DNA of 64,000 bases. Source: Eledone cirrhosa. Lineage: Eukaryota. The stretch is from assembly GCA_964016885.1 (NCBI GenBank), contig OZ024742.1:17546001-17610000 (forward strand). Reading direction: 5' to 3'. The notes under the pieces were generated by a model, which saw nothing but the letters and a program-made list of their open reading frames with translations, was not told the DNA's origin and searched no databases. Shown here piece by piece: positions 1 to 52,836 of the stretch (the stretch's first letter is position 1; every line of letters starts with the position of its first letter). The position numbers and the translations under genes are program-made.

Positions 1-3000
1 CTCCTCAAACTGTCAGACTGTACTTCGAATCTGTTGGATAGAATTGTGTACTCTTCAAACTGTCAGACTGTAATTCGAATCTGTTGGATAGAATTGTGTA
101 CTTCTCAAACTGTCAGACTGTACTTCGAATCTGTTTGATAGAATTGTGTACTTCTCAAACTGTCAGACTGTACTTCCAACTTGTTTGATAGAATTGTGTA
201 TTCCTCAAACTGTCAGACTGTACTTAGAATCTGTTTGATAGAATTGTGTATTCCTCAAACTGTCAGACTGTACTTCGAATCTGTTGGATAGAATTGTGTA
301 CTTCTCAAACTGAAAGACTGTACTTCGAACCTGGTTGATAGAATTGTGTATTCCTCAAACTGTCAGACTGTACTTCGAATCTGTTGGATAGAATTGTGTA
401 CTTCTCAAACTGAAAGACTGTACTTCGAACCTGGTTGATAGAATTGTGTATTCCTCAAACTGTCAGACTGTACTTCGAATCTGTTGGATAGAATTGTGTA
501 CTTCTCAAACTGAAAGACTGTACTTCGAACCTGGTTGATAGAATTTTGTATTCCTCAAACTGTCAGACTGTACTTCGAATCTGTTGGATAGAATTGTGTA
601 CTTCTCAAACTGAAAGACTGTACTTCGAACCTGGTTGATAGAATTGTGTATTCCTCAAACTGTCAGACTGTACTTCGAATCTGTTGGATAGAATTGTGTA
701 CTTCTCGAACTGTCAGACTGTACTTCGGACCTGGTTGATAGAATTGTGTATTCCTCAAACTGTCAGACTGTACTTCGAATCTGTTGGATAGAATTGTGTA
801 CTTCTCGAACTGTCAGACTGTACTTCGGACCTGGTTGATAGAATTGTGTATTCCTCAAACTGTCAGACTGTACTTCGAATCTGTTGGATAGAATTGTGTA
901 CTTCTCAAAATGAAAGACTGTACTTCGAACCTGGTTGATAGAATTGTGTATTCCTCAAACTGTCAGACTGTACTTCGAATCTGTTGGATAGAATTGTGTA
1001 CTTCTCGAACTGTCAGACTGTACTTCGGACCTGGTTGATAGAATTGTTTATTCCTCAAACTGTCAGACTGTACTTCGAACCTGTTGGTTAGCATTGTGTA
1101 CTTCTCAAACTGTCAGACTGTACTTCGAATCTGTTTGATAGAATTGTGTACTTCTCAAACTGTCAGACTGTACGTCCAACCTGTTTGATAGAATTGTGTA
1201 TTCCTCAAACTGTCAGACTGTACTTCGAATCTGTTGGATAGATTTGTGTACTTCTCAAACTGTCAGACTGTACTTCGAACTTGTTGGATATAATTGTGTA
1301 CTTCTCAAACTGTCAGACTGTACTTCGAACCTGTTTGATAGAATTGTGTATTCATCAAACTGTCAGACTGTTCTTCGAACTCATTGGATAGAATTGTGTA
1401 CTTCTCAAACTGTCAGACTGTACTTCGAACCTGTTTGATAGAATTGTGTACTTCTCAAACTGTCAGACTGTACTTCGAACTTGTTGGATATAATTGTGTA
1501 CTTCTCAAACTGTCAGACTGTACTTCGAACCTGTTTGATAGAATTGTGTATTCCTTAAACTGTCTGACTGTACATCGGACCTGTTGGATAGAATTGTGTA
1601 CTCCTCAAACTGTCAGACTGTACTTCGAATCTGTTGGATAGAATTGTGTACTCTTCAAACTGTCAGACTGTAATTCGAATCTGTTGGATAGAATTGTGTA
1701 CTTCTCAAACTGTCAGACTGTACTTCGAATCTGTTTGATAGAATTGTGTACTTCTCAAACTGTCAGACTGTACTTCCAACCTGTTTGATAGAATTGTGTA
1801 TTCCTCAAACTGTCAGACTGTACTTAGAATCTGTTTGATAGAATTGTGTATTCCTCAAACTGTCAGACTGTACTTCGAATCTGTTGGATAGAATTGTGTA
1901 CTTCTCAAACTGAAAGACTGTACTTCGAACCTGGTTGATAGAATTGTGTATTCCTCAAACTGTCAGACTGTACTTCGAACCTGGTTGATAGAATTGTTTA
2001 TTCCTCAAACTCTCAGACTGTTCTTCGAACTCATTGGATAGAATTGTGTACTTCTCAAACTGTCAGACTGTACTTCGAACCTGTTGGATAGAATTGTGTA
2101 CTCCTCAAACTGTCAGACTGTACTTCGAACCTGTTTGATAGAATTGTGTACTTCTCAAACTGTCAGACTGTACTTCGAACTTGTTGGATATAATTGTGTA
2201 CTTCTCAAACTGTCAGACTGTACTTCGAATCTGTTGGATAGAATTGTGTACTTTTCAAACTCTCAGACTGTACTTCGAACCTGTTTGATAGAATTGTGTC
2301 TTCCTTAAACTGTCTGACTGTACTTCGAACTCATTGGATAGAATTGTGTACTCCTCAAACTGTCAGACTGTACTTCCAACCTGTTTGATAGAATTGTGTA
2401 CTCCTCAAACTGTCAGACTGTACTTCGAACTCATTGGATAGAATTGTATACTCCTCAAACTGTCAGACTGTACTTCGAAACTGTTTGATAGAATTGTGTA
2501 TTCCTCAAACAGTCAAACTGTACTTCGAACCTGTTGGATAGAATTGTTTACTTCTCAATCTGTCAGATTGTACTTCGAACCTGTTGGATAGAATTGTGTA
2601 CTCCTCAAACTGTCAGACTGTACTTCGAATCTGTTGGATATAATTGTGTACTTCTCAAACTGTCAGACTGTACTTCGAACCTGTTTGATAGAATTGTGTT
2701 TTCCTCAAACTGTCAGACTGTACTTCCAACCTGTTTGATAGAATTGTGTACTCCTCAAACTGTCAGACTGTACTTCGAATCTGTTGGATATAATTGTGTA
2801 CTTCTCAAACTGTCAGACTGTACTTCGAACCTGTTTGATAGAATTGTGTACTTCTCAAACTGTCAGACTGTACTTCGAACTTGTTGGATATAATTATGTA
2901 CTTCTCAAACTGTCAGACTGTACTTCGAACCTGTTGGATAGAAGTGTGTACTCCGCAAAGTGTCAGACTGTACTTCGAACCTGTTGGATAGAATTGTGTA

Positions 3001-6000
3001 CTTCTCAAACTGTCAGACTGTACTTCGAACCTGTTTGATAGAATTGTGTATTCCTTAAACTGTCTGACTGTACATCGGATCTGTTGGATAGAATTGTGTA
3101 CTCCTCAAACTGTCAGACTGTACTTCGAATCTGTTGGATAGAATTGTGTACTCTTCAAACTGTCAGACTGTAATTCGAATCTGTTGGATAGAATTGTGTA
3201 CTCCTCAAACTGTCAGACTGTACTTCGAATCTGTTTGATAGAATTGTAGAATTGTGTACTTCTCAAACTGTCAGACTGTACTTCCAACTTGTTTGATAGA
3301 ATTGTGTATTCCTCAAACTGTCAGACTGTACTTAGAATCTGTTTGATAGAATTGTTTATTCCTCAAACTGTCAGACTGTACTTCGAATCTGTTAGATAGA
3401 ATTGTGTACTTCTCAAACTGAAAGTCTGTACTTCGAACCTGGTTGATAGAATTGTGTATTCCTCAAACTGTCAGACTGTACTTCGAATCTGTTGGATAGA
3501 ATTGTGTACTTCTCGAACTGTCAGACTGTACTTCGAACCTGGTTCATAGAATTGTTTATTCCTCAAACTGTCAGACTGTACTTCGCACCTGGTTGATAGT
3601 ATTGTTTATTCCTCAAACTGTCAGACTGTACTTCGAATCTGTTGGATAGAATTGTGTACTTCTCAAACTGTGACACTGTACTTCGAACCTGTTGGATAGA
3701 ATTGTGTATTCCTTAAACTGTCTGACTGTACTTCGAACCTGTTTGATAGAATTGTGTATTCCTCAAACTGTCAGACTGTTCTTCGAACTCATTGGATAGA
3801 ATTGTGTACTTCTCAAACTGTCAGACTGTACTACGAATCTGTTGGATAGAATTGTGTACTGCGCAAACTGTCAGACTGTACTTCGAACCTGTTTGATAGA
3901 ATTGTGTATTCCTCAAACTCTCACACTGTACTTCGAACCTGTTTGATAGAATTGTGTATTCCTCAAACTGTCAGACTGTACTTCCAACCGGTTTGATAGA
4001 ATTGTGTATTCCTCAAACTCTCACACTGTACTTCGAACCTGTTTGATAGAATTGTGTACTCCTCAAACTGTCAGACTGTAATTCGAATCTGTTGGATAGA
4101 ATTGTGTACTTCTCAAACTGTCAGACTGTACTTCGAATCTGTTTGATAGAATTGTGTACTTCTCAAACTGTCAGACTGTACTTCCAACTTGTTTAATAGA
4201 ATTGTGTATTCCTCAAACTGTCAGACTGTACTTAGAATCTGTTTGATAGAATTGTGTATTCCTCAAAATGTCAGACTGTACTTCGAATCTGTTGGATAGA
4301 ATTGTGTACTTCTCAAACTGAAAGACTGTACTTCGAACCTGGTTGATAGAATTGTGTATTCCAAAACTGTCAGACTGTACTTCGAATCTGTTGGATAGAA
4401 TTGTGTACTTCTCGAACTGTCAAACTGTACTTCGGACCTGTTGGATAGAATTGTGTATTCCTCAAACTGTCAGACTGTACTTCGAACCTGTTGGTTAGCA
4501 TTGTGTACTTCTCAAACTGTCAGACTGTACTTCGAATCTGTTTGATAGAATTGTGTATTCCTCAAACTGTCAGACTGTACTTCGAATCTGTTGGATAGAT
4601 TTGTGTACTTCTGAAACTGAAAGACTGTACTTCGAACCTGGTTGATAGAATTGTGTATTCCTCAAACTGTCAGACTGTACTTCGAATCTGTTGGATAGAA
4701 TTGTGTACTTCTCGAGCTGTCAGACTGTACTTCGAACCTGGTTGATAGAATTGTGTATTCCTCAAACTGTCAGACTGTACTTCGAACCTGGTTGATAGAA
4801 TTGTTTATTCCTCAAACTGTCAGACTGTTCTTCGAACTCATTGGATAGAATTGTGTACTTCTCAAACTGTCAGACTGTACTTCGAACCTGTTGATAGAAT
4901 TGTGTACTTCTCAAACTGTCAGACTGTACTTCGAACTTGTTGGATATAATTGTGTACTTCTCAAACTGTCAGACTGTACTTCGAACCTGTTTGATAGAAT
5001 TGTGTATTCCTTAAACTGTCCGACTGTACATCGGACCTGTTGGATAGAATTGTGTACTCCTCAAACTGTCAGACTGTACTTCGAATCTGTTGGATAGAAT
5101 TGTGTACTCTTCAATCTGTCAGACTGTAATTCGAATCTGTTTGATAGAATTGTGTACTTCTCAAACTGTCAGACTGTACTTCCAACTTGTTTGATAGAAT
5201 TGTGTATTCCTCAAACTGTCAGACTGTACTTAGAATCTGTTTGATAGTATTGTGTATTCCTCAAACTGTCAGACTGTACTTCGAATCTGTTGGATAGAAT
5301 TGTGTACTTCTCAAACTGTCAGACTGTACTTCCAACCTGTTTGATAGAATTGTGTATTCCTCAAACTGTCAGACTGTACTTAGAATCTGTTGGATAGAAT
5401 TGTGTACTTCTCGAGCTGTCAGACTGTACTTCGAACCTGGTTGATAGAATTGTGTATTCCTCAAACTGTCAGACTGTACTTCGAACCTGGTTGATAGAAT
5501 TGTTTATTCCTCAAACTGTCAGACTGTTCTTCGAACTCATTGGATAGAATTGTGTACTTCTCAAACTGTCAGACTGTACTTCGAATCTGTTGGATAGAAT
5601 TGTGTACTTCTCAAACTGTCAGACTGTACTTCGAATCTGTTTGATAGAATTGTGTACTTCTCAAACTGTCAGACTGTACTTCCAACCTGTTTGATAGAAT
5701 TGTGTATTCCTCAAACTGTCAGACTGTACTTCGAATCTGTTGGATAGAATTGTGTACTTCTCAAACTGAAAGACTGTACTTCGAACCTGGTTGATAGAAT
5801 TGTGTATTCCTCAAACTGTCAGACTGTACTTCGAATCTGTTGGATAGAATTGTGTACTTCTCGAACTGTCAGACTGTACTTCGAACCTGGTTGATAGAAT
5901 TGATTATTCCTCAAACTGTCAGACTGTACTTCGAACCTGGTTGATAGAATTGTTTATTCCTCAAACTGTCAGACTGTTCTTCGAACTCATTGGATAGAAT

Positions 6001-9000
6001 TGTGTACTTCTCAAACTGTCAGACTGTACTTCGAACCTGTTGGATAGAATTGTGTACTCCTCAAACTGTCAGACTGTACTTCGAACCTGTTTGATAGAAT
6101 TGTGTACTTCTCAAACTGTCAGACTGTACTTCGAATTTGTTGGATATAATTGTGTACTTCTCAAACTGTCAGACTGTACTTCGAATCTGTTGGATAGAAT
6201 TGTGTACTTTTCAAACTGTCAGACTGTACTTCGAACCTGTTTGATAGAATTGTGTATTCCTTAAACTGTCTGACTGTACTTCGAACTCATTGGATAGAAT
6301 TGTGTACTCCTCAAACTGTCAGACTGTACTTCCAACCTGTTTGATAGAATTGTGTACTCCTCAAACTGTCAGACTGTACTTCGAACTCATTGGATAGAAT
6401 TGTATAGTCCTCAAACTGTCAGACTGTACTTCGAAACTGTTTGATAGAATTGTGTATTCCTCAAACAGTCAAACTGTACTTCGAACCTGTTGGATAGAAT
6501 TGTTTACTTCTCAATCTGTCAGATTGTACTTCGAACCTGTTGGATAGAATTGTGTACTCCTCAAATGGTCAGACTGTACTTCGAACCTGTTTGATAGAAT
6601 TGTGTACTTCTCAAACTGAAAGTCTGTACTTCGAACCTGGTTGATAGAATTGTGTATTCCTCAAACTGTCAGACTGTACTTCGAATCTGTTGGATAGAAT
6701 TGTGTACTTCTCGAACTGTCAGACTGTACTTCGAACCTGGTTCATAGAATTGTTTATTCCTCAAACTGTCAGACTGTACTTCGCACCTGGTTGATAGTAT
6801 TGTTTATTCCTCAAACTGTCAGACTGTACTTCGAATCTGTTGGATAGAATTGTGTACTTCTCAAACTGTGACACTGTACTTCGAACCTGTTGGATAGAAT
6901 TGTGTATTCCTTAAACTGTCAGACTGTACTTCGAACCTGTTTGATAGAATTGTGTATTCCTCAAACTGTCAGACTGTTCTTCGAACTCATTGGATAGAAT
7001 TGTGTACTTCTCAAACTGTCAGACTGTACTTCGAATCTGTTTGATAGAATTGTGTACTTCTCAAACTGTCAGACTGTACTTCCAACTTGTTTAATAGAAT
7101 TGTGTATTCCTCAAACTGTCAGACTGTACTTCCAACTTGTTTAATAGAATTGTGTATTCCTCAAACTCTCACACTGTACTTCGAATCTGTTTGATAGAAT
7201 TGTGTATTCCTCAAAATGTCAGACTGTACTTCGAATCTGTTGGATAGAATTGTGTACTTCTCAAACTGAAAGACTGTACTTCGAATCTGTTTGATAGAAT
7301 TGTGTATTCCAAAACTGTCAGACTGTACTTCGAATCTGTTGGATAGAATTGTGTACTTCTCGAACTGTCAAACTGTACTTCGGACCTGGTTGATAGAATT
7401 GTTTATTCCTCAAACTGTCAGACTGTACTTCGAACCTGTTGGTTAGCATTGTGTACTTCTCAAACTGTCAGACTGTACTTCGAATCTGTTTGATAGAATT
7501 GTGTACTTCTCAAACTGTCAGACTGTACTTCCAACCTGTTTGATAGAATTGTGTATTCCTTAAACTGTCTGACTGTACTTCCAACTCATTGGATAGAATT
7601 GTGTACTCCTCAAACTGTCAGACTGTACTTCCAACCTGTTTGATAGAATTGTGTACTCCTCAAACTGTCAGACTGTACTTCGAACTCATTGGATAGAATT
7701 GTATACTCCTCAAACTGTCAGACTGTACTTCGAAACTGTTTGATAGAATTGTGTATTCCTCAAACAGTCAAACTGTACTTCGAACCTGTTGGATAGAATT
7801 GTTTACTTCTCAAACTGTCAGATTGTACTTCGAACCTGTTGGATAGAATTGTGTACTCCTCAAACTGTCAGACTGTACTTCGAACCTGTTTGATAGAATT
7901 GTGTACTTCTCAAACTGTCAGACTGTACTTCGAACTTGTTGGATATAATTGTGTACTTCTCAAACTGTCAGACAGTACTTCGAATCTGTTTGATAGAATT
8001 GTGTACTTTTCAAACTGTCAGACTGTACTTCGAACCTGTTTGATAGAATTGTGTATTCCTTAAACTGTCTGACTGTAATTCGAACCTGTTGGGTAGAATT
8101 GTGTACTCCTCAAACTGTCAGACTGTACTTCGAATCTGTTGGATATAATTGTGTACTTCTCAAACTGTCAGACTGTACTTCGAACCTGTTTGATAGAATT
8201 GTGTTTTCCTCAAACTGTCAGACTGTACTTCCAACCTGTTTGATAGAATTGTTTACTCCTCAAACTGTCAGACTGTACTTCGAATCTGTTGGATATAATT
8301 GTGTACTTCTCAAACTGTCAGACTGTACTTCGAACCTGTTTGATAGAATTGTGTACTTCTCAAACTGTCAGACTGTACTTTGAACTTGTTGGATATAATT
8401 ATGTACTTCTCAAACTGTCAGACTGTACTTCGAACCTGTTGGATAGAAGTGTGTACTCCGCAAAGTGTCAGACTGTACTTCGAACCTGTTGGATAGAATT
8501 GTGTACTTCTCAAACTGTCAGACTGTACTTCGAACCTGTTTGATAGAATTGTGTATTCCTTAAACTGTCTGACTGTACATCGGACCTGTTAGATAGAATT
8601 GTGTACTCCTCAAACTGTCAGACTGTACTTCGAATCTGTTGGATAGAATTGTGTACTCTTCAAACTGTCAGACTGTAATTCGAATCTGTTGGATAGAATT
8701 GTGTACTTCTCAAACTGTCAGACTGTACTTCGAATCTGTTTGATAGAATTGTAGAATTGTGTACTTCTCAAACTGTCAGACTGTACTTCCAACTTGTTTG
8801 ATAGAATTGTGTATTCCTCAAACTGTCAGACTGTACTTAGAATCTGTTTGATAGAATTGTGTATTCCTCAAACTGTCAGACTGTACTTCGAATCTGTTAG
8901 ATAGAATTGTGTACTTCTCAAACTGAAAGTCTGTACTTCGAACCTGGTTGATAGAATTGTGTATTCCTCAAACTGTCAGACTGTACTTCGAATCTGTTGG

Positions 9001-12000
9001 ATAGAATTGTGTACTTCTCGAACTGTCAGACTGTACTTCGAACCTTGTTCATAGAATTGTTTATTCCTCAAACTGTCAGACTGTACTTCGCACCTGGTTG
9101 ATAGTATTGTTTATTCCTCAAACTGTCAGACTGTACTTCGAATCTGTTGGATAGAATTGTGTACTTCTCAAACTGTCACACTGTACTTCGAACCTGTTGG
9201 ATAGAATTGTGTATTCCTTAAACTGTCTGACTGTACTTCGAACCTGTTTGATAGAATTGTGTATTCCTCAAACTGTCAGACTGTTCTTCGAACTCATTGG
9301 ATAGAATTGTGTACTTCTCAAACTGTCAGACTGTACTACGAATCTGTTGGATAGAATTGTGTACTGCGCAAACTGTCAGACTGTACTTCGAACCGGTTTG
9401 ATAGAATTGTGTATTCCTCAAACTCTCACACTGTACTTCGAACCTGTTTGATAGAATTGTGTATTCCTCAAACTGTCAGACTGTACTTCCAACCGGTTTG
9501 ATAGAATTGTGTATTCCTCAAACTCTCACACTGTACTTCGAACCTGTTTGATAGAATTGTGTATTCCTCAAACTGTCAGACTGTACTTCCAACCGGTTTG
9601 ATAGAATTGTGTATTCCTCAAACTCTCACACTGTACTTCGAATCTGTTGGATAGAATTGTGTACTTCTCAAACTGTCAGACTGTACTTCGAATCTGTTTG
9701 ATAGAATTGTGTACTTCTCAAACTGTCAGACTGTACTTCCAACTTGTTTGATAGAATTGTGTATTCCTCAAACTGTCAGACTGTACTTAGAATCTGTTTG
9801 ATAGAATTGTGTATTCCTCAAACTGTCAGACTGTACTTCGAATCTGTTGGATAGAATTGTGTACTTCTCAAACTGAAAGACTGTACTTCGAACCTGGTTG
9901 ATAGAATTGTGTATTCCTCAAACTGTCAGACTGTACTTCGAATCTGTTGGATAGAATTGTGTACTTCTCGAACTGTCAGACTGTACTTCGGACCTGGTTG
10001 ATAGAATTGTTTATTCCTCAAACTGTCAGACTGTACTTCGAACCTGTTGGTTAGCATTGTGTACTTCTCAAACTGTCAGACTGTACTTCGAATCTGTTTG
10101 ATAGAATTGTGTACTTCTCAAACTGTCAGACTGTACTTCCAACCTGTTTGATAGAATTGTGTATTCCTCAAACTGTCAGACTGTACTTCGAATCTGTTGG
10201 ATAGATTTGTGTACTTCTCAAACTGAAAGACTGTACTTCGAACCTGGTTGATAGAATTGTGTATTCCTCAAACTGTCAGACTGTACTTCGAACCTGGTTG
10301 ATAGAATTGTTTATTCCTCAAACTGTCAGACTGTTCTTCGAACTCATTGGATAGAATTGTGTACTTCTCAAACTGTCAGACTGTACTTCGAACCTGTTTG
10401 ATAGAATTGTGTACTTCTCAAACTGTCAGACTGTACTTCGAACTTGTTGGATATAATTGTGTACTTCTCAAACTGTCAGACTGTACTTCGAACCTGTTTG
10501 ATAGAATTGTGTATTCCTTAAACTGTCTGACTGTACATCGGACCTGTTGGATAGAATTGTGTACTCCTCAAACTGTCAGACTGTACTTCGAATCTGTTGG
10601 ATAGAATTGTGTACTCTTCAAACTGTCAGACTGTAATTCGAATCTGTTGGATAGAATTGTGTACTTCTCAAACTGTCAGACTGTACTTCGAATCTGTTTG
10701 ATAGAATTGTGTACTTCTCAAACTGTCAGACTGTACTTCCAACCTGTTTGATAGAATTGTGTATTCCTCAAACTGTCAGACTGTACTTAGAATCTGTTTG
10801 ATAGAATTGTGTATTCCTCAAACTGTCAGACTGTACTTCGAATCTGTTGGATAGAATTGTGTACTTCTCAAACTGAAAGACTGTACTTCGAACCTGGTTG
10901 ATAGAATTGTGTATTCCTCAAACTGTCAGACTGTACTTCGAATCTGTTGGATAGAATTGTGTACTTCTCGAACTGTCAGACTGTACTTCGAACCTGGTTG
11001 ATAGAATTGTTTATTCCTCAAACTGTCAGACTGTACTTCGAACCTGTTGGTTAGCATTGTGTACTTCTCAAACTGTCAGACTGTACTTCGAATCTGTTTG
11101 ATAGAATTGTGTACTTCTCAAACTGTCAGACTGTACTTCGAATCTGTTTGATAGAATTGTGTACTTCTCAAACTGTCAGACTGTACTTCCAACCTGTTTG
11201 ATAGAATTGTGTATTCCTCACACTGTCAGACTGTACTTAGAATCCGTTTGATAGAATTGTGTATTCCTCAAACTGTCAGACTGTACTTCGAATCTGTTGG
11301 ATAGATTTGTGTACTTCTCAAACTGAAAGACTGTACTTCGAACCTGGTTGATAGAATTGTGTATTCCTCAAACTGTCAGACTGTACTTCGAACCTGGTTG
11401 ATAGAATTGTTTATTCCTCAAACTGTCAGACTGTTCTTCGAACTCATTGGATAGAATTGTGTACTTCTCAAACTGTCAGACTGTACTTCGAACCTGTTTG
11501 ATAGAATTGTGTACTTCTCAAACTGTCAGACTGTACTTCGAACTTGTTGGATATAATTGTGTACTTCTCAAACTGTCAGACTGTACTTCGAACCTGTTTG
11601 ATAGAATTGTGTATTCCTTAAACTGTCTGACTGTACATCGGACCTGTTGGATAGAATTGTGTACTCCTCAAACTGTCAGACTGTACTTCGAATCTGTTGG
11701 ATAGAATTGTGTACTTCTCGAACTGTCAGACTGTACTTCGAACCTGTTTGATAGAATTGTGTACTTCTCAAACTGTCAGACTGTACTTCGAACTTGTTGG
11801 ATATAATTGTGTACTTCTCAAACTGTCAGACTGTACTTCGAACCTGTTTGATAGAATTGTGTATTCCTTAAACTGTCTGACTGTTCATCGGACCTGTTGG
11901 ATAGAATTGTGTACTCCTCAAACTGTCAGACTGTACTTCGAATCTGTTGGATAGAATTGTGTACTCTTCAAACTGTCAGACTGTAATTCGAATCTGTTGG

Positions 12001-15000
12001 ATAGAATTGTGTACTTCTCAAACTGTCAGACTGTACTTCGAATCTGTTTGATAGAATTGTGTACTCTTCAAACTGTCAGACTGTAATTCGAATCTGTTGG
12101 ATAGAATTGTGTACTTCTCAAACTGTCAGACTGTACTTCCAACCTGTTTGATAGAATTGTGTATTCCTCAAACTGTCAGACTGTACTTAGAATCTGTTTG
12201 ATAGAATTGTGTATTCCTCAAACTGTCAGACTGTACTTCGAATCTGTTGGATAGAATTGTGTACTTCTCAAACTGAAAGACTGTACTTCGAACCTGGTTG
12301 ATAGAATTGTGTATTCCTCAAACTGTCAGACTGTACTTCGAATCTGTTGGATAGAATTGTGTACTTCTCGAACTGTCAGACTGTACTTCGAACCTGGTTG
12401 ATAGAATTGTTTATTCCTCAAACTGTCAGACTGTACTTCGAACCTGGTTGATAGAATTGTTTATTCCTCAAACTGTCAGACTGTTCTTCGAACTCATTGG
12501 ATAGAATTGTGTACTTCTCAAACTGTCAGACTGTACTTCGAACCTGTTGGATAGAATTGTGTACTCCTCAAACTGTCAGACTGTACTTCGAACCTGTTTG
12601 ATAGAATTGTGTACTTCTCAAACTGTCAGACTGTACTTCGAACTTGTTGGATATAATTGTGTACTTCTCAAACTGTCAGACTGTACTTCGAATCTGTTGG
12701 ATAGAATTGTGTACTTTTCAAACTGTCAGACTGTACTTCGAACCTGTTTGATAGAATTGTGTATTCCTTAAACTGTCTGACTGTACTTCCAACTCATTGG
12801 ATAGAATTGTGTACTCCTCAAACTGTCAGACTGTACTTCCAACCTGTTTGATAGAATTGTGTACTCCTCAAACTGTCAGACTGTACTTCGAACTCATTGG
12901 ATAGAATTGTATACTCCTCAAACTGTCAGACTGTACTTCGAAACTGTTTGATAGAATTGTGTATTCCTCAAACAGTCAAACTGTACTTCGAACCTGTTGG
13001 ATAGAATTGTTTACTTCTCAAACTGTCAGATTGTACTTCGAACCTGTTGGATAGAATTGTGTACTCCTCAAACTGTCAGACTGTACTTCGAACCTGTTTG
13101 ATAGAATTGTGTACTTCTCAAACTGTCAGACTGTACTTCGAACTTGTTGGATATAATTGTGTACTTCTCAAACTGTCAGACAGTACTTCGAATCTGTTTG
13201 ATAGAATTGTGTACTTTTCAAACTGTCAGACTGTACTTCGAACCTGTTTGATAGAATTGTGTATTCCTTAAACTGTCTGACTGTAATTCGAACCTGTTGG
13301 GTAGAATTGTGTACTCCTCAAACTGTCAGACTGTACTTCGAATCTATTGGATATAATTGTGTACTTCTCAAACTGTCAGACTGTACTTCGAACCTGTTTG
13401 ATAGAATTGTGTTTTCCTCAAACTGTCAGACTGTACTTCCAACCTGTTTGATAGAATTGTGTACTCCTCAAACTGTCAGACTGTACTTCGAATCTGTTGG
13501 ATATAATTGTGTACTTCTCAAACTGTCAGACTGTACTTCGAACCTGTTTGATAGAATTGTGTACTTCTCAAACTGTCAGACTGTACTTCGAACTTGTTGG
13601 ATATAATTATGTACTTCTCAAACTGTCAGACTGTACTTCGAACCTGTTGGATAGAAGTGTGTACTCCGCAAAGTGTCAGACTGTACTTCGAACCTGTTGG
13701 ATAGAATTGTGTACTCCTCAAACTGTCAGACTGTACTTCGAATCTGTTGGATAGAATTGTGTACTCTTCAAACTGTCAGACTGTAATTCGAATCTGTTGG
13801 ATAGAATTGTGTACTTCTCAAACTGTCAGACTGTACTTCGAATCTGTTTGATAGAATTGTAGAATTGTGTACTTCTCAAACTGTCAGACTGTACTTCCAA
13901 CTTGTTTGATAGAATTGTGTATTCCTCAAACTGTCAGACTGTACTTAGAATCTGTTTGATAGAATTGTGTATTCCTCAAACTGTCAGACTGTACTTCGAA
14001 TCTGTTAGATAGAATTGTGTACTTCTCAAACTGAAAGTCTGTACTTCGAACCTGGTTGATAGAATTGTGTATTCCTCAAACTGTCAGACTGTACTTCGAA
14101 TCTGTTGGATAGAATTGTGTACTTCTCGAACTGTCAGACTGTACTTCGAACCTGGTTCATAGAATTGTTTATTCCTCAAACTGTCAGACTGTACTTCGAA
14201 TCTGTTGGATAGAATTGTGTACTTCTCGAACTGTCAGACTGTACTTCGAACCTGGTTCATAGAATTGTTTATTCCTCAAACTGTCAGACTGTACTTCGAA
14301 TCTGTTGGATAGAATTGTGTACTTCTCGAACTGTCAGACTGTACTTCGAACCTGGTTCATAGAATTGTGTATTCCTCAAACTGTCAGACTGTTCTTCGAA
14401 CTCATTGGATAGAATTGTGTACTTCTCAAACTGTCAGACTGTACTACGAATCTGTTGGATAGAATTGTGTACTGCGCAAACTCTCAGACTGTACTTCGAA
14501 CCGGTTTGATAGAATTGTGTATTCCTCAAACTCTCACACTGTACTTCGAACCTGTTTGATAGAATTGTGTATTCCTCAAACTGTCAGACTGTACTTCCAA
14601 CCTGTTGGATAGAATTGTGTACTTCTCAAACTGTCAGACTGTACTTCGAACCTGTTTGATGGAATTGTATATTCCTCAAACTGTCAGACTGTACTTCGAA
14701 TCTGTTGGATAGAATTGTGTACTTCTCAAACTGTGACACTGTACTTCGAACCTGTTGGATAGAATTGTGTATTCCTTAAACTGTCTGACTGTACTTCGAA
14801 CCTGTTTGATAGAATTGTGTATTCCTCAAACTATCAGACTGTTCTTCGAACTCATTGGATAGAATTGTGTACTTCTCAAACTGTCAGACTGTACTTCGAA
14901 CCTGTTTGATAGAATTGTATATTCCTTAAACTGTCTGACTGTACTAAGAACCTGTTTGATAGAATTGTGTATTCCTCAAACTGTCAGACTGTACTTCGAA

Positions 15001-15675
15001 TCTGTTGGATAGATTTATGTATTCCTCAAACTGTCAGACTGTACTTCGAACTCATTGGATAGAATTGTGTACTCCTCAAACTGTCAGACTGTACTTCGAA
15101 TCTGTTGGATAGATTTATGTATTCCTCAAACTGTCAGACTGTACTTCGAACCTGTTTGATAGAATTGTGTATTCCTCAAACTGTCAGACTGTACTTCGAA
15201 CCTGTTTGATAGAATTGTATATTCCTCAAACTGTCAGACTGTACTTCGAACCTGTTTGATAGAATTGTCTATTCCTTAAACTGTCAGACTGTACTTAGAA
15301 CCTGTTGGATAGAATTGTGTACTTCTCAAACTGTCAGACTGTACTTCGAACTTATTGGATAGAATTATGTACTCCTCAAACTGTCAGACTGTACTTCGAA
15401 CTTATTGGATATAATTGTGTACTTCTCAAACTGTCAGACTGTATTTCGAACCTGTTGGATAGAATTGTGTACTCCTCAAACTGTCAGACTGTAGTTCCAA
15501 CCTGTTGGATAGAATTGTGTACTCCTCAAACTGTCAGACTGTAGTTCCAACCTGTTGGATAGAAGTGTGTACTCCTCAAACTGTCAGACTGTACTTCGAA
15601 CTCATTGGATAGAATTGTGTATTCCTGAAACTGTCAGACTGTACTTCGAAATTGTTGGATAGAAGTGTGTACTCC
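1..15675. repeat. 50-bp tandem satellite (~310 monomers; runs off the left edge of the window)
   Basis: Consensus GATAGAATTGTGTACTTCTCAAACTGTCAGACTGTACTTCGAACCTGTTG repeats with 50-bp period until about 15675. The short ORFs here are translations of the repeat. Confidence 0.98.
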
Positions 15676-24071: not shown

Positions 24072-24208
24072 TAGAAAGTGAGGTTTTTTTTACAAAATGA
24101 AAAATAACCGAGCTGTCCTACACGAGTGAAAGTATGAAGAAAAAGGGATGAAATCGAAAATGCAACTGGAGTCTTATTTTTTTTTTAAATATATATATTT
24201 ATTTGGTT

Positions 24209-24246
24209 CCTTTACCGGTTTCGCAGTTCTTCTGCTTTTCAAAAGG
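24209..24246 (-). ncRNA. Mirror copy of the same hammerhead motif in the left arm of the palindrome
   Basis: Exact reverse complement of 24319-24356. Confidence 0.75.
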
Positions 24247-24318
24247 TGAGTTGAGATGGAGGGTCTGTGGTTTTTCTCATATCTGTGAGAAAAACCACAG
24301 ACCCTCCATCTCAACTCA

Positions 24319-24356
24319 CCTTTTGAAAAGCAGAAGAACTGCGAAACCGGTAAAGG
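24319..24356 (+). ncRNA. Minimal type I hammerhead ribozyme motif, U3-A8 core variant
   Basis: CCTT-TTGAAAA-GCAG-AAGAA-CTGC-GAAA-CCGG-TA/AAGG. Stem I CCUU/AAGG, stem II GCAG/CUGC, palindromic loop III CCGG, GUA cleavage triplet (manual fold). Confidence 0.75.
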
Positions 24357-24443
24357 AACCAAATAAATATATATATTTTTTAAAAAAATAAGACTCCAGT
24401 TGCATTTTCGATTTCATCTCTTTTTCTATATATATATATATAT

Positions 24444-24487
24444 ATATGTAAGCCATGTGCAACCACGCAGTATTCTTCTTTCTTCTC

Positions 24488-24529
<42 letters not shown>

Positions 24530-24573
24530 GAGAAGAAAGAAGAATACTGCGCGGTTGCACATGGGTTACATAT
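24444..24573. repeat. Palindrome with (TA)n at its centre
   Basis: ATATGTAAGCCATGTGCAACCACGCAGTATTCTTCTTTCTTCTCATGTTTT, then (AT)n, then its reverse complement with two mismatches. Confidence 0.95.
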
Positions 24574-25170: not shown

Positions 25171-25298
25171 ACAAAGGAATTGTGGTAAGGAACCAAATGA
25201 CCATAACGCACCAGAGTACTGAATACTTAGGGTAGTAGAGTGGGAAATAGGGAAAAGTATGACCCCGACGGCAGAGCTCGAGCGGAGTCATACTTTTT

Positions 25299-25300
<2 letters not shown>
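25170..25300 (-). mobile_element. Short copy of the hammerhead-tail element (family of 26460-26740) with a small fold-back, lying between two (TA)n tracts
   Basis: AACAAAGGAATTGTGGTAAGGAACC...GACCCCGACGGCAGAGCTC matches 26460-26570. It ends in GAGTCATACTTTTTCC, which is inverted relative to GGAAAAGTATGACCC. Confidence 0.85.
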
Positions 25301-25428: not shown

Positions 25429-25896
25429 CCCAACGACTAAGCTGTTGCCGTTTCATCAGTTAGTTCCAGACGTGAATTAGCTGTTGAAACGGCAATAGTT
25501 CATTATATATATAAATATATATATATATATATTACTTCTATGTGTATATATTTCAATCCTTAGTCCCTGAGTCTGTATGTACGTTAACTCTATTATCTTA
25601 CAATTTCTTTTTTCAACATATATTATATAGGTTATTGTGGTCACACATACACTGATATGCTTGCCCTCATATATGTACTTACGCACACATTTGTTCACTA
25701 TACACATACATTTGTACATACACACATATGTATATTTGTGAGTGAATATACACGCATTTATACACATACCCTTACTATATTTCTTAATTTTATATTTATA
25801 TATCTCTTGCATTACTTTTATTTATATATTTTTTTGCCTGTTAAACTGTTGCCTTTCTTGAGGAGATTTATCAAATATTTCACTGTTTTAAATTGC

Positions 25897-26067: not shown

Positions 26068-26109
<42 letters not shown>

Positions 26110-26112
26110 TTG

Positions 26113-26383
26113 TTATTAAATAAATGGAAGCTATATTTATAAAACCATATTTATTCTATTATATACATTTCAAGGGTACCAAAACTTTGGCACGCTATCA
26201 TCAGACAAAATACGAAGTGTGTTTTATAAATCTTGACACAACCAATATTTTGACACAACCAATATTTAATATCATTTAATATCATAGAATATTATACTCC
26301 AGAAAAAACTGTCGAGTGCTCTTAATCAGTTATAAACATTTATGTTTGTTGAATTACCAACAAATTGAATATCCCTTCTGCTT
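26113..26383. mobile_element. Internally inverted copy of the element at 63441-63655, flanked by (TA)n
   Basis: 26121-26231 is a direct copy of 63542-63652, while 26276-26383 is the reverse complement of 63440-63541. Confidence 0.85.
26152..26212 (-). ncRNA. Degenerate copy of the hammerhead at 63573-63633
   Basis: Minus strand TATTTTGT-CTGATGA-TAGCGTGCCAAAGTTTTGGTACCCTT-GAAA-TGTATA-TA/ATAGAATA. The 10.1-11.1 pair is U-U. Confidence 0.55.
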
Positions 26384-26404
26384 ATATATATATATATGTA
26401 TTCT

Positions 26405-26459
<55 letters not shown>

Positions 26460-26461
<2 letters not shown>

Positions 26462-26740
26462 CAAAGGAATTGTGGTAAGGAACCAGATGGACCATAACGC
26501 ACCAGAGTACTCAATACTTAGGGTAGTAGAATGGGAAATAGGAAAAAGTATGACCCCGACGGCAGAGCTCAAGCCGTTTCGACGGCTGTTTCTGGACTAA
26601 ATTAGAATTTTTAGCCGGGTGAATAAATAGCCGAACTTGTCAAGGGGGTACTTCCTTATATGGGAAGATTATAGTTGTCACCGTACGACGGTGCCTCTAC
26701 CTCTCCACGAGGAGTTATGGGATCTTTATTCTATGATCCT
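26460..26740 (-). mobile_element. Hammerhead-bearing short element (PLE pseudo-LTR/retrozyme-like) with its 3' end joined to (TA)n
   Basis: Three related copies in the window (25170, 26460, 30578) share the terminus ...TTCCTT(T/C)GTT followed by (AT)n. Confidence 0.75.
26538..26659 (-). ncRNA. Extended type I hammerhead ribozyme motif, U3-A8 variant
   Basis: Minus strand AGGAAGTA-C-CCCC-TTGACAA-G..CGGCT...AGCCG.C-GAAA-CGGC-TTGAGCTCT-GCCG-TC/GGGG-TCA-TACTTTTTCCT. GUC triplet, predicted cut between 26558 and 26557 (manual fold). Confidence 0.72.
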
Positions 26741-29700
26741 ATAGATAGATATGTTTCTTTATTAGCCACAGGGGCACAAAAGAAGGGGACAAATACAAAG
26801 GGGGAATTTTACATACAATATGAACGTGTAAAATATTAACACAAATGTAATTTAAAGTTAATCGATTTTCCCCAATAGGGGGAGACATTTCATATGGGTA
26901 AAACATACCCCTGAAAAAAATGTGCAACCCTCATCTCCAGGAGTACGAAGAGTTTGAATCCCCTTCCTCTCTTCCTCCTTTTCCTCAACCTAAAGGCTGA
27001 TATAGAGAGAAGGCCCATTCAGTCGGGCCATTCTCGCCACATTCACCCACCTTTCATAAAACTTGCTGCGGTACAGTACCTCTCTCTCCATTCTGGTTCT
27101 TCTTCCAGAGTGGTATTTGAAAAAAAGAATCAGTTGTTGGGCGGAGAGAAAGGTGTCTGACCTCAACCCTTTTAACCTCGTCCACCATACAACCTCTTTC
27201 GCCATAGCTATCACACAAAGGAAAACTGCCTCTCCTTCATTTTTGAAGGAGGGTGGCGGTTTGATTATGACAATGGACTCGGTGGTCAACTGGATTGGTC
27301 CCACCCGCGACAATAGTCATTCTACATAGCCCCACAAGTCGGTAATACCCGAGCAGTGTACAAATGCGTTGGCGACGGTTTCCTCGTCGCACACGCATCT
27401 CGGACAGATCTTTTTCGAAGGGTCCCTGCCCGGGCGCCCGTGTCTGTAGAGCTTGTCTCGAACTGGTAGAGCTCCTCGGTAGCACTGGATGGCCAGGGAC
27501 TTTTGGAAGTTGTCCATCGGTCCAAGGCGGAAGCTTCTACCGAACAGACTGGCCAGTTCGTCTTCCTCTACGTCTAGAGTTTCTCCGAGCGCGTCGTCCC
27601 ACTTGCTGCGGACCAACCCTCTATAGAATGGCGAAGTGGAGTCTCCACTGATCACCGGGTCCGCCTGCCAGAGGGCTGTGAGCGCCTGATCACATTAGAT
27701 GTGCCAGTCGCCCATTTTCCTCGGTCTTTGCTTGAACCAGGACTGCAGCTCGGTCAGCAAGACGAGTCGTGGGAATGCTCGCCTCATGAACGGGGCCCAC
27801 ACCGGTTGTCCGGTGAGGAATACGTGGAGGTGCCGCAGCCTGAGCGCGTGTTTGCGCATCGTCAGCCACAGCATTCCCAGCCCTCCGTTTGAAGGGCGTT
27901 GGCCAGCAGATGGATCTTCTCAACAAAGGAGCCCGCTTCTTCCAAAGGAATTGGAAGACCGCGTGCTCCATTTTGGTGAGCGTTTTGGCTGTACAAGGCA
28001 CCACGGTCAAGCGGTAGTAGATGACGGACGCTATAAAAGTGTTCGCCATCTCCGCTCGACCTTTCAAGGATAGTTTGCACTCGGCCCACTTCTGGGTGAG
28101 TTCAAACACCTTGGCCGTCACCTCGTTCCAGTTCTTCTCCACCTGGAGGTCCGGACCAAACTAGACCCCGAGCAGCTTTACTGGTCCTTCCGTCCAGCAT
28201 CCGACGACGCCATCGGAAGGCATCGGTCTGCCTCTCCACGATCCGAGTTGCAAACCGACGGACTTTTCCCGGTTCAGCTTCGCTCCTGTGAACCTTTCGT
28301 ATTCCTTCAGTAAGGTGCCAACTTCCTCGATTTGCGAGGTGCTCGACACCATTATCGTTACGTCGTCAGCGTAGGCCGACGCCGCTTTCCGCAGTCCCGA
28401 TTCCAGAGGGATGCCCTGCAATAGCTCCAAATTCCGCAGGAGTGGTTCGAGAGTCAGTACGTACAGAAGGGAGGAGAGAGGGCATCCCTGTCGAATGGAT
28501 CGCGTGATATGGAACGGCTCTGAGAGGTAGCCATTCACCTTGACCGTTGAGCAGATGTTGCTGTTGTGCATTGCAGTAATCCAGCCCCTGAACACGGGTC
28601 CGGATCTTGCCGCCTCGAGCACCGCATCCAGGTAACGATGGTCAACCCTATCGAAAGCCTTAGACTGATCCAGGTTGATCAGGCCCCAAAGCCGGGTTTA
28701 CACCCTACCCTCTATGATGTATCGCATGAGGTAGAGGTTGACGTGTATGGACCTGGTCGGGATTGCGCATGTCTGCGTTTTTCCCACCAGGTTTTCGACG
28801 ACAAGCACCAGCCTCTTTTCCAACACCTTGGCCAAAATCTGTAACTCTGTGTTTAGCATAGTCATGGGCCGGAAGTTGTCTATGTCAACCCCCTTGTTCT
28901 CGTCCTTCCTGACTAACGTGACTACGCCCCTGTTCACACAACTGGAAATTCTCCCGTTCTGCTGCCAGTTGTAGTAGACCACTTCCAGGAGACCGGAGTA
29001 CAAGTCCGGCATTGCTACGTAAAATTCGTAGCTTCGACCGTCGAGACCTGGAGATTTGCGTTTGCCGCATTGACTCAGCGCGTCTCCTATCTCAGCGGCT
29101 GAAATCGGCTTTTCGCAGAACTTCGCTTCGCTGTCCAAGAGTCGCGGTAGGCCGTCGAGGTATGGAACAAAATCCATAGCCCCTCCCGGCGCGCCGCCCT
29201 GCCCGAACAGCTGAGCAAAGTGCCGCTGAAAGGCCCCGCACATCTGCTTCGGCTCACGTATCACGCGTCCGTTTTGGTCCTTCAAAGACCGAATCGTGGA
29301 CTTGTTGCCACTTTTCGCCACCGTCACCCGGGCCCAGCTAACAGCTTTGGCTCCCTCGTTACCCAGAGCACGTATTTTGCTTCTGACAACGCAGCCCCCA
29401 TGCTTTGCGTCGAAGAACTGGTCCAATGCCGTTCTCGTTGCTGGCATGCTGGCTACGTTGCCACTTCTAATTGCCTCTTCTACTTCATCTACCAGTTCCT
29501 TCTCGGTCCTATTTCTATTTAACGCTAATTCTTTACTAAAAACTAACGAGTCTAATCTAACTGCCCTCTTGAGAGAGTTCTACCATATGTTGTTGACAAT
29601 GGCCCCTGTTAAGTGGTGTTTAACTAAAGTGCTAATCCGTCTACTGTAGGCTTTGCATGTCGGTAACGACAAGTTTAGCTTCCAGTAGCCGGGCCCTTGT

Positions 29701-30397
29701 CTATGGGTTCTATCAAGGTTGACCATGCAGGTCACTAGTTTGGGATCTGAATAAGCAAGCATGAACATTTGTGGACAGCTTAAAATGTCCCTATCTTTAT
29801 TTCTAACTAGAACTCTATCTAGGTACGATCTAGATGTTCCGCTTCGATTAGTCCACGTCCACAGTGGCACAGTCGGAAAATCTAGTCGATATCTATCGGC
29901 CAGGTCAAATCGGCCGGTTAACTGTTTGAGGCTGTTACACACCCCTTTTTCGGGACATGCTCCCACATAGTCCCAACGTGCATCTAGGATTTCATTCCAG
30001 TCCCCCACTAAAAGCAAGGAGCGGGACGTTCCCAGAAAAGCCTCTAGATGTTTGAAGAAGTCTGGCCGCGGTGTCCCGGATGGGGCATATGCGACCAACA
30101 GCCTGAAGGCTCCACCTTCACTACCGTCAACGTCTAGGACCACCAGTCGACTCTCCGGATCCAGATGTATCGTCTGTGTTACGAGGTCCAGGTGTTTCCA
30201 AAACGGCAACCCCACCCCCACCTCCCGGCTGACAGAGAGATGCGTAGATCTCAAAGTCATCGAAGATGCGGCCAGTTGTCGTTCGCTGTGGATCCTGGAC
30301 GCGCAAATGATTACTACATCCATGCTGTTCGACCTGAGGTCGTTTAAGAGTTTGCCCTGTTTCCAAGGCATCCCCAGGCCGCGTACATTTACTGAGC
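26741..30397 (-). mobile_element. Non-LTR retrotransposon, L1/Tx1-like, ORF2 plus 3' UTR only
   Basis: GC-rich block encoding APE, RT and a C-terminal Cys/His motif. The 3' end has AATAAA (plus-strand TTTATT 26758-63) and a short (TATC)n tail. No ORF1 upstream. Confidence 0.9.
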
Positions 30398-30401
30398 TCA
30401 A
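26990..30401 (-). pseudogene. Tx1-like ORF2 (apurinic endonuclease, reverse transcriptase, zinc-knuckle-like C-terminus), frameshifted
   Basis: APE: SVNVRGL, GDWN, SYLDR, GPGYWKLN. RT: KSPGLDG, FRPMTMLN, DQSKAFDRV (~28680-28650), RQGCPLS, YADD. C-terminus: KLSLKGRA, CPRC...ETVANAFVHC. Confidence 0.92.
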
Positions 30402-30576
30402 GCCGTTTCGACGGCTAATTCTGGACTAAAAGACATTTTAATCCAGAATTAGCCGTCGAAAAGGCTTGAGCTCAGCCGTCGGGGTCCTAATCGTTCATAT
30501 TACCCACTCTACTACCCTAAGTATTGAGTACTTTGGTGCGTTATGGTCCACCTGGTTCCTTACCACATTTCCTTCG

Positions 30577-30578
<2 letters not shown>
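30392..30578 (+). mobile_element. Inverted copy of the hammerhead-tail element with an 84-bp fold-back, ending in (TA)n
   Basis: 30436-30578 is a diverged reverse complement of 26460-26601. 30392-30475 is itself a hairpin. It carries only the 3' half of the HHR (GAAA-AGGC-TTGAGCTCA-GCCG-TC-GGGG). Confidence 0.88.
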
Positions 30579-30627
<49 letters not shown>

Positions 30628-30783
30628 AAAGAATAGAGGTGTAACACACAAGTTATTATATATTGGTAAACGGAATAGAAAATGCTGGCAAATTGTTCAC
30701 AGTTGAAAAATGGTTTAATTAGGAATAAAAGAGTATTAGTGATTGTATGGGTTAGTATTCAGTTGTGGTTTTAAGTTTTTAAG

Positions 30784-30821
30784 TTTTCACCGGTTGCGCA
30801 TTTCTAAATGCTTTTCAAAAA
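30784..30821 (-). ncRNA. Degenerate hammerhead-like motif (same design as 24319-24356)
   Basis: Minus strand TTT-TTGAAAA-GCATT-TAGA-AATGC-GCAA-CCGG-TG-AAAA. Two core positions deviate (GCAA for GAAA, UG for UH). Confidence 0.45.
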
Positions 30822-30858
30822 TAATTTTGAGATAGAGTGTCCGTGCTGTTTGCTCTGA

Positions 30859-30913
<55 letters not shown>

Positions 30914-52000: not shown

Positions 52001-52716
52001 AACCTTATACTTTCTATACTGTCTCTATGTAACCTTATACTTTCTATTCTACTGTCTCTATGTAACCTTATACTTTCTATTCTACTGCCTCTATGTAACC
52101 TTATACTTTCTATTCTTCTGTCTCTATGTAACCTTATACTTTCTATACTGTCTCTATGTAACCTTATACTTTCTATTCTACTGTCTCTATGTAACCTTAT
52201 ACTTTCTATTCTACTGTCTCTATGTAACCTTATACTTTCTATTCTACTGTCTCTATGTAACCTTATATTTTATATTCTACTGTCTCTATGTAACCTTATA
52301 TTTTATATTCTACTGTCTCTATGTAACCTTATATTTTATATTCTACTGTCTCTATGTAACCTTATACTTTCTATTCTACTGTCTCTATGTAACCTTATAC
52401 TTTCTATTCTACTGTCTCTATGTAACCTTATACTTTATATTCTACTGTCTCTATGGAACCTTATACTTTCTATTCTACTGTCCCTATGTAACCTTATATT
52501 TTCTATTCTACTGTCTCTATGGAACCTTATACTTTCTATTCTACTGTCTCTATGTAACCTTATATTTTATATTCTACTGTCTCTATGGAACCTTATACTT
52601 TCTATTCTACTGTCTCTATGTAACCTTATATTTTATATTCTACTGTCTCTATGGAACCTTATACTTTCTATTCTACTGTCTCTATGTAACCTTATATTTT
52701 ATATTCTACTGTCTCT
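31053..52716. repeat. 33-bp tandem satellite with 30-bp and rare 34-bp variants (~21.7 kb)
   Basis: Consensus CTACTGTCTCTATGTAACCTTATACTTTCTATT. The 30-mer lacks TCT; the 34-mer has CTATATCTAC. Confidence 0.98.
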
Positions 52717-52729
52717 TTTAAAGTGATAA

Positions 52730-52836
52730 ATCACTCTGAAAACACCGGTCCTCGTCCGATCACCGAAGTAAAGCAACGTCGAGACTAGTTAATACTTAGA
52801 TGGATGACCGCTTGGGAACCCTAGGTGCTGTAAGCA
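52730..52836 (+). pseudogene. 5S rRNA-derived sequence, missing roughly the first 12 nt
   Basis: ATCACTCTGAAAACACCGGTCCTCGTCCGATCACCGAAGTAAAGCAACGTCGAGACTAGTTAATACTTAGATGGATGACCGCTTGGGAACCCTAGGTGCTGTAAGC matches the invertebrate 5S pattern. It is followed by ATTTACTTTT. Confidence 0.88.

What the first reader, a model, noticed from the sequence alone, without database searches (positions are those of the whole stretch)
26460..30578. Tx1-like ORF2 bracketed by ~140-bp inverted hammerhead-tail termini inside (TA)n: a TIR-like composite element
Seen: (TA)n, then 26460-26601, the LINE, 30436-30578, then (TA)n. The two ends are inverted copies with the same terminus. The right copy joins the LINE exactly at the first endonuclease motif (SVNVRG), so ORF1 and the native start are replaced while almost all of ORF2 is kept. 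LINEs do not normally have inverted termini. Inference: either a twin-primed PLE-type insertion that captured LINE RNA by template switching, or a chimeric element that has moved as a unit. A LINE inserted into a pre-existing fold-back pair is also possible.
Basis: partly seen in the sequence, partly recalled or inferred. Interest (0 to 1): 0.7.

Follow-up and report, generated by a model that had tools for sequence, protein, structure and literature searches.

The report
Four retroelements stacked, not one transposon
The mirror-image ends are pieces of two different copies of a very abundant Penelope-type jumping gene that likely came to flank an unrelated dead LINE and a SINE stub through separate insertions and small deletions, so this is an ordinary one-off pile-up and not a new mobile element.

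Summary
The inverted ends and the decayed LINE ORF2 are real, but they are not one element. The left end is the last 220 nt of a (TA)n-targeting Hydra-clade Penelope-like element (subfamily A). The right end is a hairpin insertion of subfamily B, 9-10% different, whose inner arm has lost its first ~25 nt and its TA flank. All three inner junctions occur once in this 3-Gb assembly; no donor copy was found (best LINE relatives 91-97%). The proposed GCTCAG microhomology is absent (1 nt right, 2 nt left). About 75,000 such termini exist, so facing pairs arise by chance. Best reading (0.7): separate insertions at this place joined by two deletions; another locus shows the predicted earlier state (SINE, TA, hairpin). 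One-step capture by the Penelope enzyme keeps about 0.15, a mobile chimera 0.02. A hammerhead-like fold with the known U3-A8 core is complete only in the left end. This scan noted LINE pieces between Penelope arms before, on other DNA of this genome.

The parts
26383..26460 (.). (TA)n tract, target of the left PLE
26461..26680 (-). 3' end (220 nt, tail included) of a Hydra-clade Penelope-like element, subfamily A; 5'-truncated; no second arm, no inner TA
26553..26649 (-). Type I hammerhead-like fold with U3-A8 core (UUGACAA at 26643-26637), long helix II, palindromic loop 3, predicted cut between 26558 and 26557; activity untested
   Evidence: no Rfam match
26679..26680 (.). 2-nt microhomology (CA) between PLE-A and the SINE; junction unique in the assembly
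26681..26740 (+). 3' stub (about 60 nt, with its A/T-rich tail) of an abundant SINE-like family; the rest of the SINE is missing
26741..26992 (-). LINE 3' UTR with AATAAA and (ATCT)n tail, tail-to-tail with the SINE stub
26993..30392 (-). Decayed LINE ORF2 (endonuclease, RT, zf-RVT) from codon 9; at least 5 stops and 1 frameshift; ORF1 and the 5' end absent
30393..30431 (-). Leftover inner arm of the subfamily-B hairpin; lacks about 25 nt and the TA flank seen in other copies; 1-nt microhomology (G) with the LINE; junction unique
30436..30578 (+). Long arm of the subfamily-B hairpin: 3' 143 nt of the PLE with tail; only the 3' half of the hammerhead-like fold
30578..30623 (.). (TA)n tract, target of the right PLE

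Best explanation
The stretch is a single-copy stack of four retroelement pieces (PLE-A end, SINE stub, dead LINE, cut PLE-B hairpin) that likely arrived one by one at this place and were likely joined by two deletions. Likely order: (1) a SINE inserted and its A/T-rich tail grew or sat beside a (TA)n tract; (2) a subfamily-B PLE made its usual two-armed hairpin in that tract, one arm primed at the tail end and one at position 78; (3) the LINE primed at the SINE tail, ran to ORF2 codon 9 and joined the inner arm through one shared base, deleting the TA tract and about 25 nt of the arm, hence no duplication; (4) a subfamily-A PLE primed in a TA tract further left and its 5' end was joined through two shared bases to the SINE, removing the SINE's front part. 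Shown: the identity and borders of the four pieces, two subfamilies, the truncated arm, unique junctions, the microhomology lengths. Inferred: the order and the two deletions. Within this reading I put about 0.4 on the LINE insertion itself making the right deletion and about 0.3 on an older LINE with a later repair deletion.
For: Ends differ 9-10% at subfamily level. Of 36 facing arm pairs in fetched loci, 0 mix A with B and 1 has two tails. In 39 of 39 other best B hits the inner arm runs on to position 83 or beyond; in 28 of 29 fetched ones it ends at 78 in TA, and 1 carries a whole second tail. Arms of long copies have independent lengths (1-2350 with 79-1043; 1-2203 with 79-193), which fits two primed products (PMC11167929, passages), so the window lacks the primer-side part of the arm, which early stopping would not remove. 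9 of 32 SINE ends run into (TA)n and 1 of 32 (L100) shows SINE, TA, short arm, long arm, TA in the window's orientation. 7 of 19 short LINE copies have an unrelated 5' flank, by eye. No donor: best relatives 97% over 216 nt of 3' UTR, 94% in RT, 92-93% at the 5' part, 91% for the neighbour 79 kb away. LINE differs from its majority at 4.4% of non-CpG sites against 1.9% for each end (Fisher p = 0.025). About 75,000 termini and about 1,900 chance facing pairs.
Against: It needs two deletions that both remove the inner TA; clear 5' joins to unrelated DNA were rare (1 of 21 random termini by eye, 6 of 21 by the script), so only a handful of such loci are expected genome-wide (my arithmetic). The LINE looks older than end B (4.4% against 3/160), which sits poorly with step 3, though 160 sites cannot settle it. 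PLE-A and the LINE are on the same strand, as a template jump would need (a one-in-two coincidence). The B/B pairs were selected with a two-armed B query; only the 9 A pairs and the few random ones are unbiased. No earlier allele of this place was seen.
Confidence: 0.7

Rival explanations
1. One-step capture: the PLE enzyme primed in the TA tract beside an older B hairpin, copied 220 nt of subfamily-A RNA, jumped to the 3' end of a read-through RNA (LINE sense plus 60 nt of antisense SINE), copied 3.7 kb and was joined into the hairpin's inner arm.
For: One event would explain both inner junctions. PLE-A and LINE are on the same strand; 2-nt and 1-nt microhomologies. Host DNA framed by pLTRs is described in a rotifer (PMC3846280, section 9).
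Against: No donor with the SINE-LINE junction or high identity. The captured RNA would be a broken copy with at least 5 stops. No poly(A) at the jump point. The usual second arm from position 78 is absent; 0 of 36 arm pairs mix subfamilies.
Confidence: 0.15
2. Repair filler: a facing A/B pair in a TA-rich, hairpin-rich nest broke, both sides were trimmed, and a 3.7-kb SINE-LINE DNA fragment from elsewhere was patched in.
For: One event for both junctions; short microhomologies; both flanks are further TA-inserted repeats.
Against: No template copy in the assembly, the neighbouring LINE included (91%); no LINE 5' part in the window and no matching SINE front half beside the junctions. Long fillers are uncommon (recalled).
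Confidence: 0.1
3. A chimeric element with terminal inverted repeats that has moved as a unit.
For: Inverted termini with the same end, both in (TA)n.
Against: Each inner junction matches only this place; ends are of two subfamilies and unequal length; ORF2 is dead; no transposase or PLE ORF inside.
Confidence: 0.02
4. Assembly error that fused separate repeat copies between two long satellites.
For: The stretch lies between a 15-kb and a 21-kb satellite.
Against: All three junctions fall at biologically sensible points (LINE tail, SINE tail, microhomologies), and the LINE is collinear with a single relative over 3.65 kb.
Confidence: 0.03

Closest known systems
Hydra clade of C-terminal-endonuclease Penelope-like elements (Craig et al. 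2021, PMC8557442; abstract, passages and section 11 read)
   Same: Parent family of both ends: DKT motif, RWR in place of RWK, CxCX5C linker, CxxC and CxH around the conserved E and N, (TA)n targets, inverted 5'-truncated copy, tail on one side.
   Different: Tail is 77 nt, not 30-40; the hammerhead-like motif has a U3-A8 core; here two subfamilies with two tails face each other, which single insertions almost never show.
pLTR-framed host DNA in Adineta vaga (Arkhipova et al. 2013, PMC3846280; passages and section 9 read)
   Same: Foreign sequence between PLE terminal repeats.
   Different: There the pLTRs are of one family, a target-site duplication frames the unit, the gene family is the donor and an empty allele was found; none of these is shown here.
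Tx1-clade LINEs inserted into other transposons or microsatellites (Tx1 in Tx1D, Kibi, Koshi; PMC4494074, passages read)
   Same: L1/Tx1-type ORF2 layout; preference for a microsatellite, here (ATCT)n at 11 of 19 5' flanks by eye.
   Different: This LINE does not target the PLE: none of 29 other 3' ends or 29 other ORF2 starts is joined to it, so it is not a Tx1C-like recurring composite.
PLE minimal hammerheads with U3-A8 core (Cercyon, Schistosoma; Cervera and de la Pena 2014, PMC4209133; passages read)
   Same: U3-A8 in place of C3-G8, long helix II, G10.1-C11.1, palindromic loop 3.
   Different: Here a 4-bp helix III and a 33-nt loop 2; cutting is untested.

Membership tests
TIR-bounded mobile element (the 4.1-kb unit) | Two matching terminal inverted repeats of one family | tested here: not met
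   Ends are subfamilies A and B, 9-10% apart, 220 nt against a hairpin
TIR-bounded mobile element (the 4.1-kb unit) | Further copies with the same junctions | tested here: not met
   One match each, the window itself
TIR-bounded mobile element (the 4.1-kb unit) | Target-site duplication or empty site | tested here: inconclusive
   Masked by (TA)n; the read data could not show an empty allele
Single two-armed PLE insertion with captured sequence | One arm from the tail end, one from the internal start (78), same subfamily | tested here: not met
   Two tails, two subfamilies; 0 of 36 and 1 of 36 among other pairs
Single two-armed PLE insertion with captured sequence | A donor locus for the captured piece | tested here: not met
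   Best relatives 91-97%, no shared SINE junction; only the best 40 candidates were scored per search (13 of 13)
Hydra-clade PLE (parent of the ends) | RT with C-terminal GIY-YIG-type endonuclease | tested here: met
   Read by eye in translations of linked copies; no profile scan run on them
Hydra-clade PLE (parent of the ends) | DKT motif, RWK-like motif, CxCX5C linker, CxxC and CxH around E and N | tested here: met
   DKT in 7 of 11 fetched copies, RWR in several; linker and endonuclease motifs; criteria
Hydra-clade PLE (parent of the ends) | Insertion into (TA)n | tested here: met
Hydra-clade PLE (parent of the ends) | Placement in the Hydra clade on an RT tree | not tested
   No reference sequences fetched
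Type I hammerhead ribozyme (left end) | Core boxes and three helices | tested here: met
   U3-A8 core, GAAA, GUC, helices I-III; 91% of cells paired in 7 copies against 31-56% for slid partners; descriptor written after seeing the motif
Type I hammerhead ribozyme (left end) | Covariation beyond shuffles and stable fold | tested here: inconclusive
   101 and 205 of 500 shuffles reach the observed values; -25.5 constrained against -29.1 kcal/mol free; z = -1.5; no Rfam hit
Type I hammerhead ribozyme (left end) | Self-cleavage | not testable with these tools
   Needs an in vitro assay
Tx1-clade LINE | ORF2 with AP endonuclease, RT and C-terminal zf-RVT; ORF1 upstream | tested here: met
   upstream ORF with a CCHC-like knuckle in other copies. 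This layout is shared with the L1 clade
Tx1-clade LINE | Target preference | tested here: met
   (ATCT)n-type 5' flank in 11 of 19 short copies, by eye
Tx1-clade LINE | Placement in the Tx1 clade on an RT tree | not tested

The most novel reading that the evidence does not exclude
A Hydra-clade Penelope reverse transcriptase copied its own 3' end, jumped onto a read-through RNA of an unrelated dead LINE and pasted 3.7 kb of it, with a SINE stub, into an older hairpin of a sister subfamily: PLE-driven transfer of kilobases of foreign retroelement between inverted, hammerhead-bearing ends.
Probability: 0.15. Interest if true: 0.5.

Novelty: new member of a known kind. Interest (0 to 1): 0.15.

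Why it matters
As read here it matters little: it shows how a genome with tens of thousands of (TA)n-targeting PLE ends produces false 'TIR elements' around unrelated sequence, a trap for repeat annotation. If the capture reading held, it would be a long example of template jumping by a PLE enzyme onto foreign RNA. The parent family (Hydra clade, two fixed start points, U3-A8 hammerhead-like motif) is the more useful lead, because its cutting and its twin priming can be tested in vitro.

Tried and rejected
GCTCAG microhomology: absent in 29 of 29 other LINE copies. LINE targeting the PLE: none of 29 other 3' ends is joined to it. Left and right flanks as two halves of one split element: 26108-26382 is a whole TA-bounded repeat, ending in TA in 7 of 7 copies printed, and the right flank belongs to another repeat (part's output was cut). 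Local donor 79 kb away: 91%, no SINE junction. Canonical CUGANGA core in either end: none; Rfam: no hammerhead match at E up to 1. One search used wrong coordinates and a misplaced structure; both were set aside and redone. Public runs: no run held half of the words (best 0.36) and no RNA holder was listed. Laid contigs and RAD reads were swamped by other copies; no listed piece bridged the left inner junctions and depth was zero at 26682-26687 in 4 of 4 runs from at most 2 samples. A hole proves nothing and the species of those runs is not established, so this is not used as evidence. The protein atlas gave no answer. Literature searches for a described PLE-LINE composite listed none for this arrangement; subscription journals are mostly not covered, and the supplements of PMC8557442, which may list this Hydra family, were not opened.
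Full report
What is there. The sequence shows (TA)n, a 4.1-kb insert and (TA)n, with a 91% inverted match between the ends and a second, local inverted repeat at 30392-30431 / 30436-30475. The minus strand carries endonuclease, RT and zf-RVT pieces with at least 5 stops and one frameshift. The window lies in a 3.0-Gb animal assembly.

Left end. A genome search with 26461-26760 gave 4020 candidates; the 39 best other places match positions 1-220 (one 3-220) at 97-98% and then continue into other sequence. That continuation is a PLE: RT, a CxCX5C linker, a C-terminal endonuclease with CxxC and CxH around the conserved E and N, and DKT and RWR motifs further upstream. These are the marks of the Hydra clade as given in PMC8557442 section 11, which also reports (TA)n targets. 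No tree was built.

Right end. It is a different subfamily (B): 14/142 differences from the A majority and 4/143 from the B majority, while the left end has 4/220 and 12/140. B copies are short hairpins: TA, long arm from the tail, a loop that differs from copy to copy, an inverted arm back to position 78, TA. All 39 other best hits have an inner arm reaching position 83 or beyond; only the window's stops at 104. Of 29 fetched, 28 end at 78 in TA and one has a second whole tail. Long A copies have arms of independent length, and an in vitro study shows a PLE cutting and extending both strands from two start sites that define the tail (PMC11167929, passages). I infer that each arm is primed from its TA side; an earlier AI note on this genome (e1-10329066) reads such hairpins the same way, and I reuse that reading. 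The window then lacks the primer-side 25 nt of the inner arm, which points to a deletion after the hairpin was made.

The middle. The LINE's 3' end begins at 26741 with AATAAA and an (ATCT)n tail shared by 29 other copies. 26681-26740 is the 3' end of a SINE-like family on the plus strand (648 candidates); 'SINE' rests on its length, tail and tRNA-like head as I recall them, not on a database match. Native ORF2 starts 8 codons before the junction; none of 29 copies has GCTCA there, so one G is shared; the left junction shares CA. In 14 of 29 copies homology runs at least 1,480 nt upstream and includes an ORF1.

Recurrence and donor. Degenerate patterns across the two PLE junctions each match once, here; the SINE-LINE junction has no second full match among 13 of 13 candidates. 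Best LINE relatives are 97% over 216 nt of UTR, 94% in RT and 92-93% near the 5' junction, and 91% for the neighbour 79 kb away. These searches score only the best candidates, so they are strong but not exhaustive.

Ages. Non-CpG differences from the majority of nearest copies: A 4/206, B 3/160, LINE 138/3158 (p = 0.025 against both ends pooled; p = 0.042 for differences seen in at most one other copy). The SINE stub differs at 4/53. The LINE is likely older than end A; B alone has too few sites, and the ranges of the sampled B and LINE copies overlap (0.6-3.7% and 1.4-5.9%).

Chance. In 100 evenly spaced 10-kb stretches there were 25 termini of this family and its relatives: about 75,000 genome-wide, a 5% chance of a facing terminus within 4.2 kb and about 1,900 facing pairs under uniform placement. 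Of 21 termini at 84% identity or more, 15 end in a fold-back or TA and 6 were called foreign by the script; by eye one (L171) is clearly joined to unrelated DNA, one has other sequence between its arms, and four are misclassified. Pairs lacking both inner TA tracts should therefore number a handful, rare but expected in a scan of many windows. Among 36 facing arm pairs none mixes A and B and one has two tails; the B pairs were selected with a two-armed query, so this count leans towards matching arms.

The likely earlier state. 9 of 32 SINE ends run into (TA)n, and L100 reads SINE, TA, short arm from 78, long arm, TA, the same orientation as the window's right side. This LINE family prefers (ATCT)n (11 of 19 short copies by eye; 1 has the inverted repeat) and 7 of 19 have an unrelated 5' flank; the script's 6 shared words of 8 nt or more are mostly microsatellite. 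A LINE primed at the SINE tail and joined with loss of the TA tract and 25 nt of the arm gives the right junction in one step. Microhomology-joined 5' ends without duplication and microhomology-mediated deletions are described for PLEs and LINEs (PMC3846280, passages); target-site deletion by LINEs is recalled knowledge (listing only). Against this order, the LINE looks older than B, so a later repair deletion is nearly as likely. The left junction needs a second deletion, at or after the PLE-A insertion.

Hammerhead. There is no CUGANGA in either end and no Rfam match, but the left end holds helix I, UUGACAA, helix II, GAAA, helix III with a palindromic loop and GUC. A descriptor written after seeing this found 47 hits in all loci, 44 in this family, some being repeats of one place. 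U3-A8 cores are known from Schistosoma PLEs (PMC4209133, passages). In 7 copies 91% of cells pair, well above slid controls but not above shuffles; the fold is 3.6 kcal/mol above the free minimum in the window's copy.

Rivals and verdict. One-step capture explains both junctions at once, has a precedent in a rotifer (PMC3846280 section 9) and is suggested for other loci by unchecked notes of this scan, but it lacks a donor here and has the wrong arm signature (0.15). Repair filler 0.10, assembly error 0.03, mobile chimera 0.02, stepwise pile-up 0.70. Read data did not decide. The bioRxiv paper 10.64898/2026.07.22.740005 (passages) added nothing for this locus; PMC4494074 (passages) gave the Tx1 target comparisons. 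The parts are new members of known kinds and the composite is not an element. Interest 0.15.

Noticed in passing
window 25171-25300: A third copy of the PLE-A terminus (1-112) with a short inverted remnant ending at position 78 in TA; 4/112 from the majority.
   Followed up: partly
window 25429-25495: A short diverged relative of the same terminus, with CUGAUGA running directly into GAAAC on the minus strand.
   Followed up: no
window 24133-24432 and 24444-24573: Two near-perfect hairpins (147-nt and 65-nt arms) set in TA, of other repeat families; they give spurious microRNA matches in Rfam.
   Followed up: no
window 26108-26382 and 30624-30862: Two more TA-bounded repeat families flank the finding (3684 candidates for the left one); 23-31 kb is a nest of TA-targeting elements.
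   Followed up: partly
window 1-15675, 31053-52716, 52716-52836: A 50-bp satellite (313 copies), a 33-bp satellite (667 copies) and, at its end, a 5S rRNA-like copy (64 bits).
   Followed up: no
L062-L090, just upstream of ORF2: The short spacer between ORF1 and ORF2 of this LINE family reads like a splice donor followed by a pyrimidine tract and acceptor before the ATG.
   Followed up: no
L104-L132: Subfamily-B hairpins turn at nearly the same point (about 139-145, inside loop 2 of the hammerhead-like fold) with a different A/T-rich loop in each copy.
   Followed up: partly
L217, L241, L168 and window 26553-26649: The U3-A8 hammerhead-like motif is kept across subfamilies down to about 70% identity, with position 7 varying (C, G, U) and the GAGCUC palindrome kept in loop 3.
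   Followed up: partly
window 26461-26598 and 30463-30578, run X4: A run of another organism label holds the LINE at high depth but next to nothing of either PLE terminus at 96% likeness, which hints that the PLE expansion is lineage-specific (contigs show presence, not absence).
   Followed up: no
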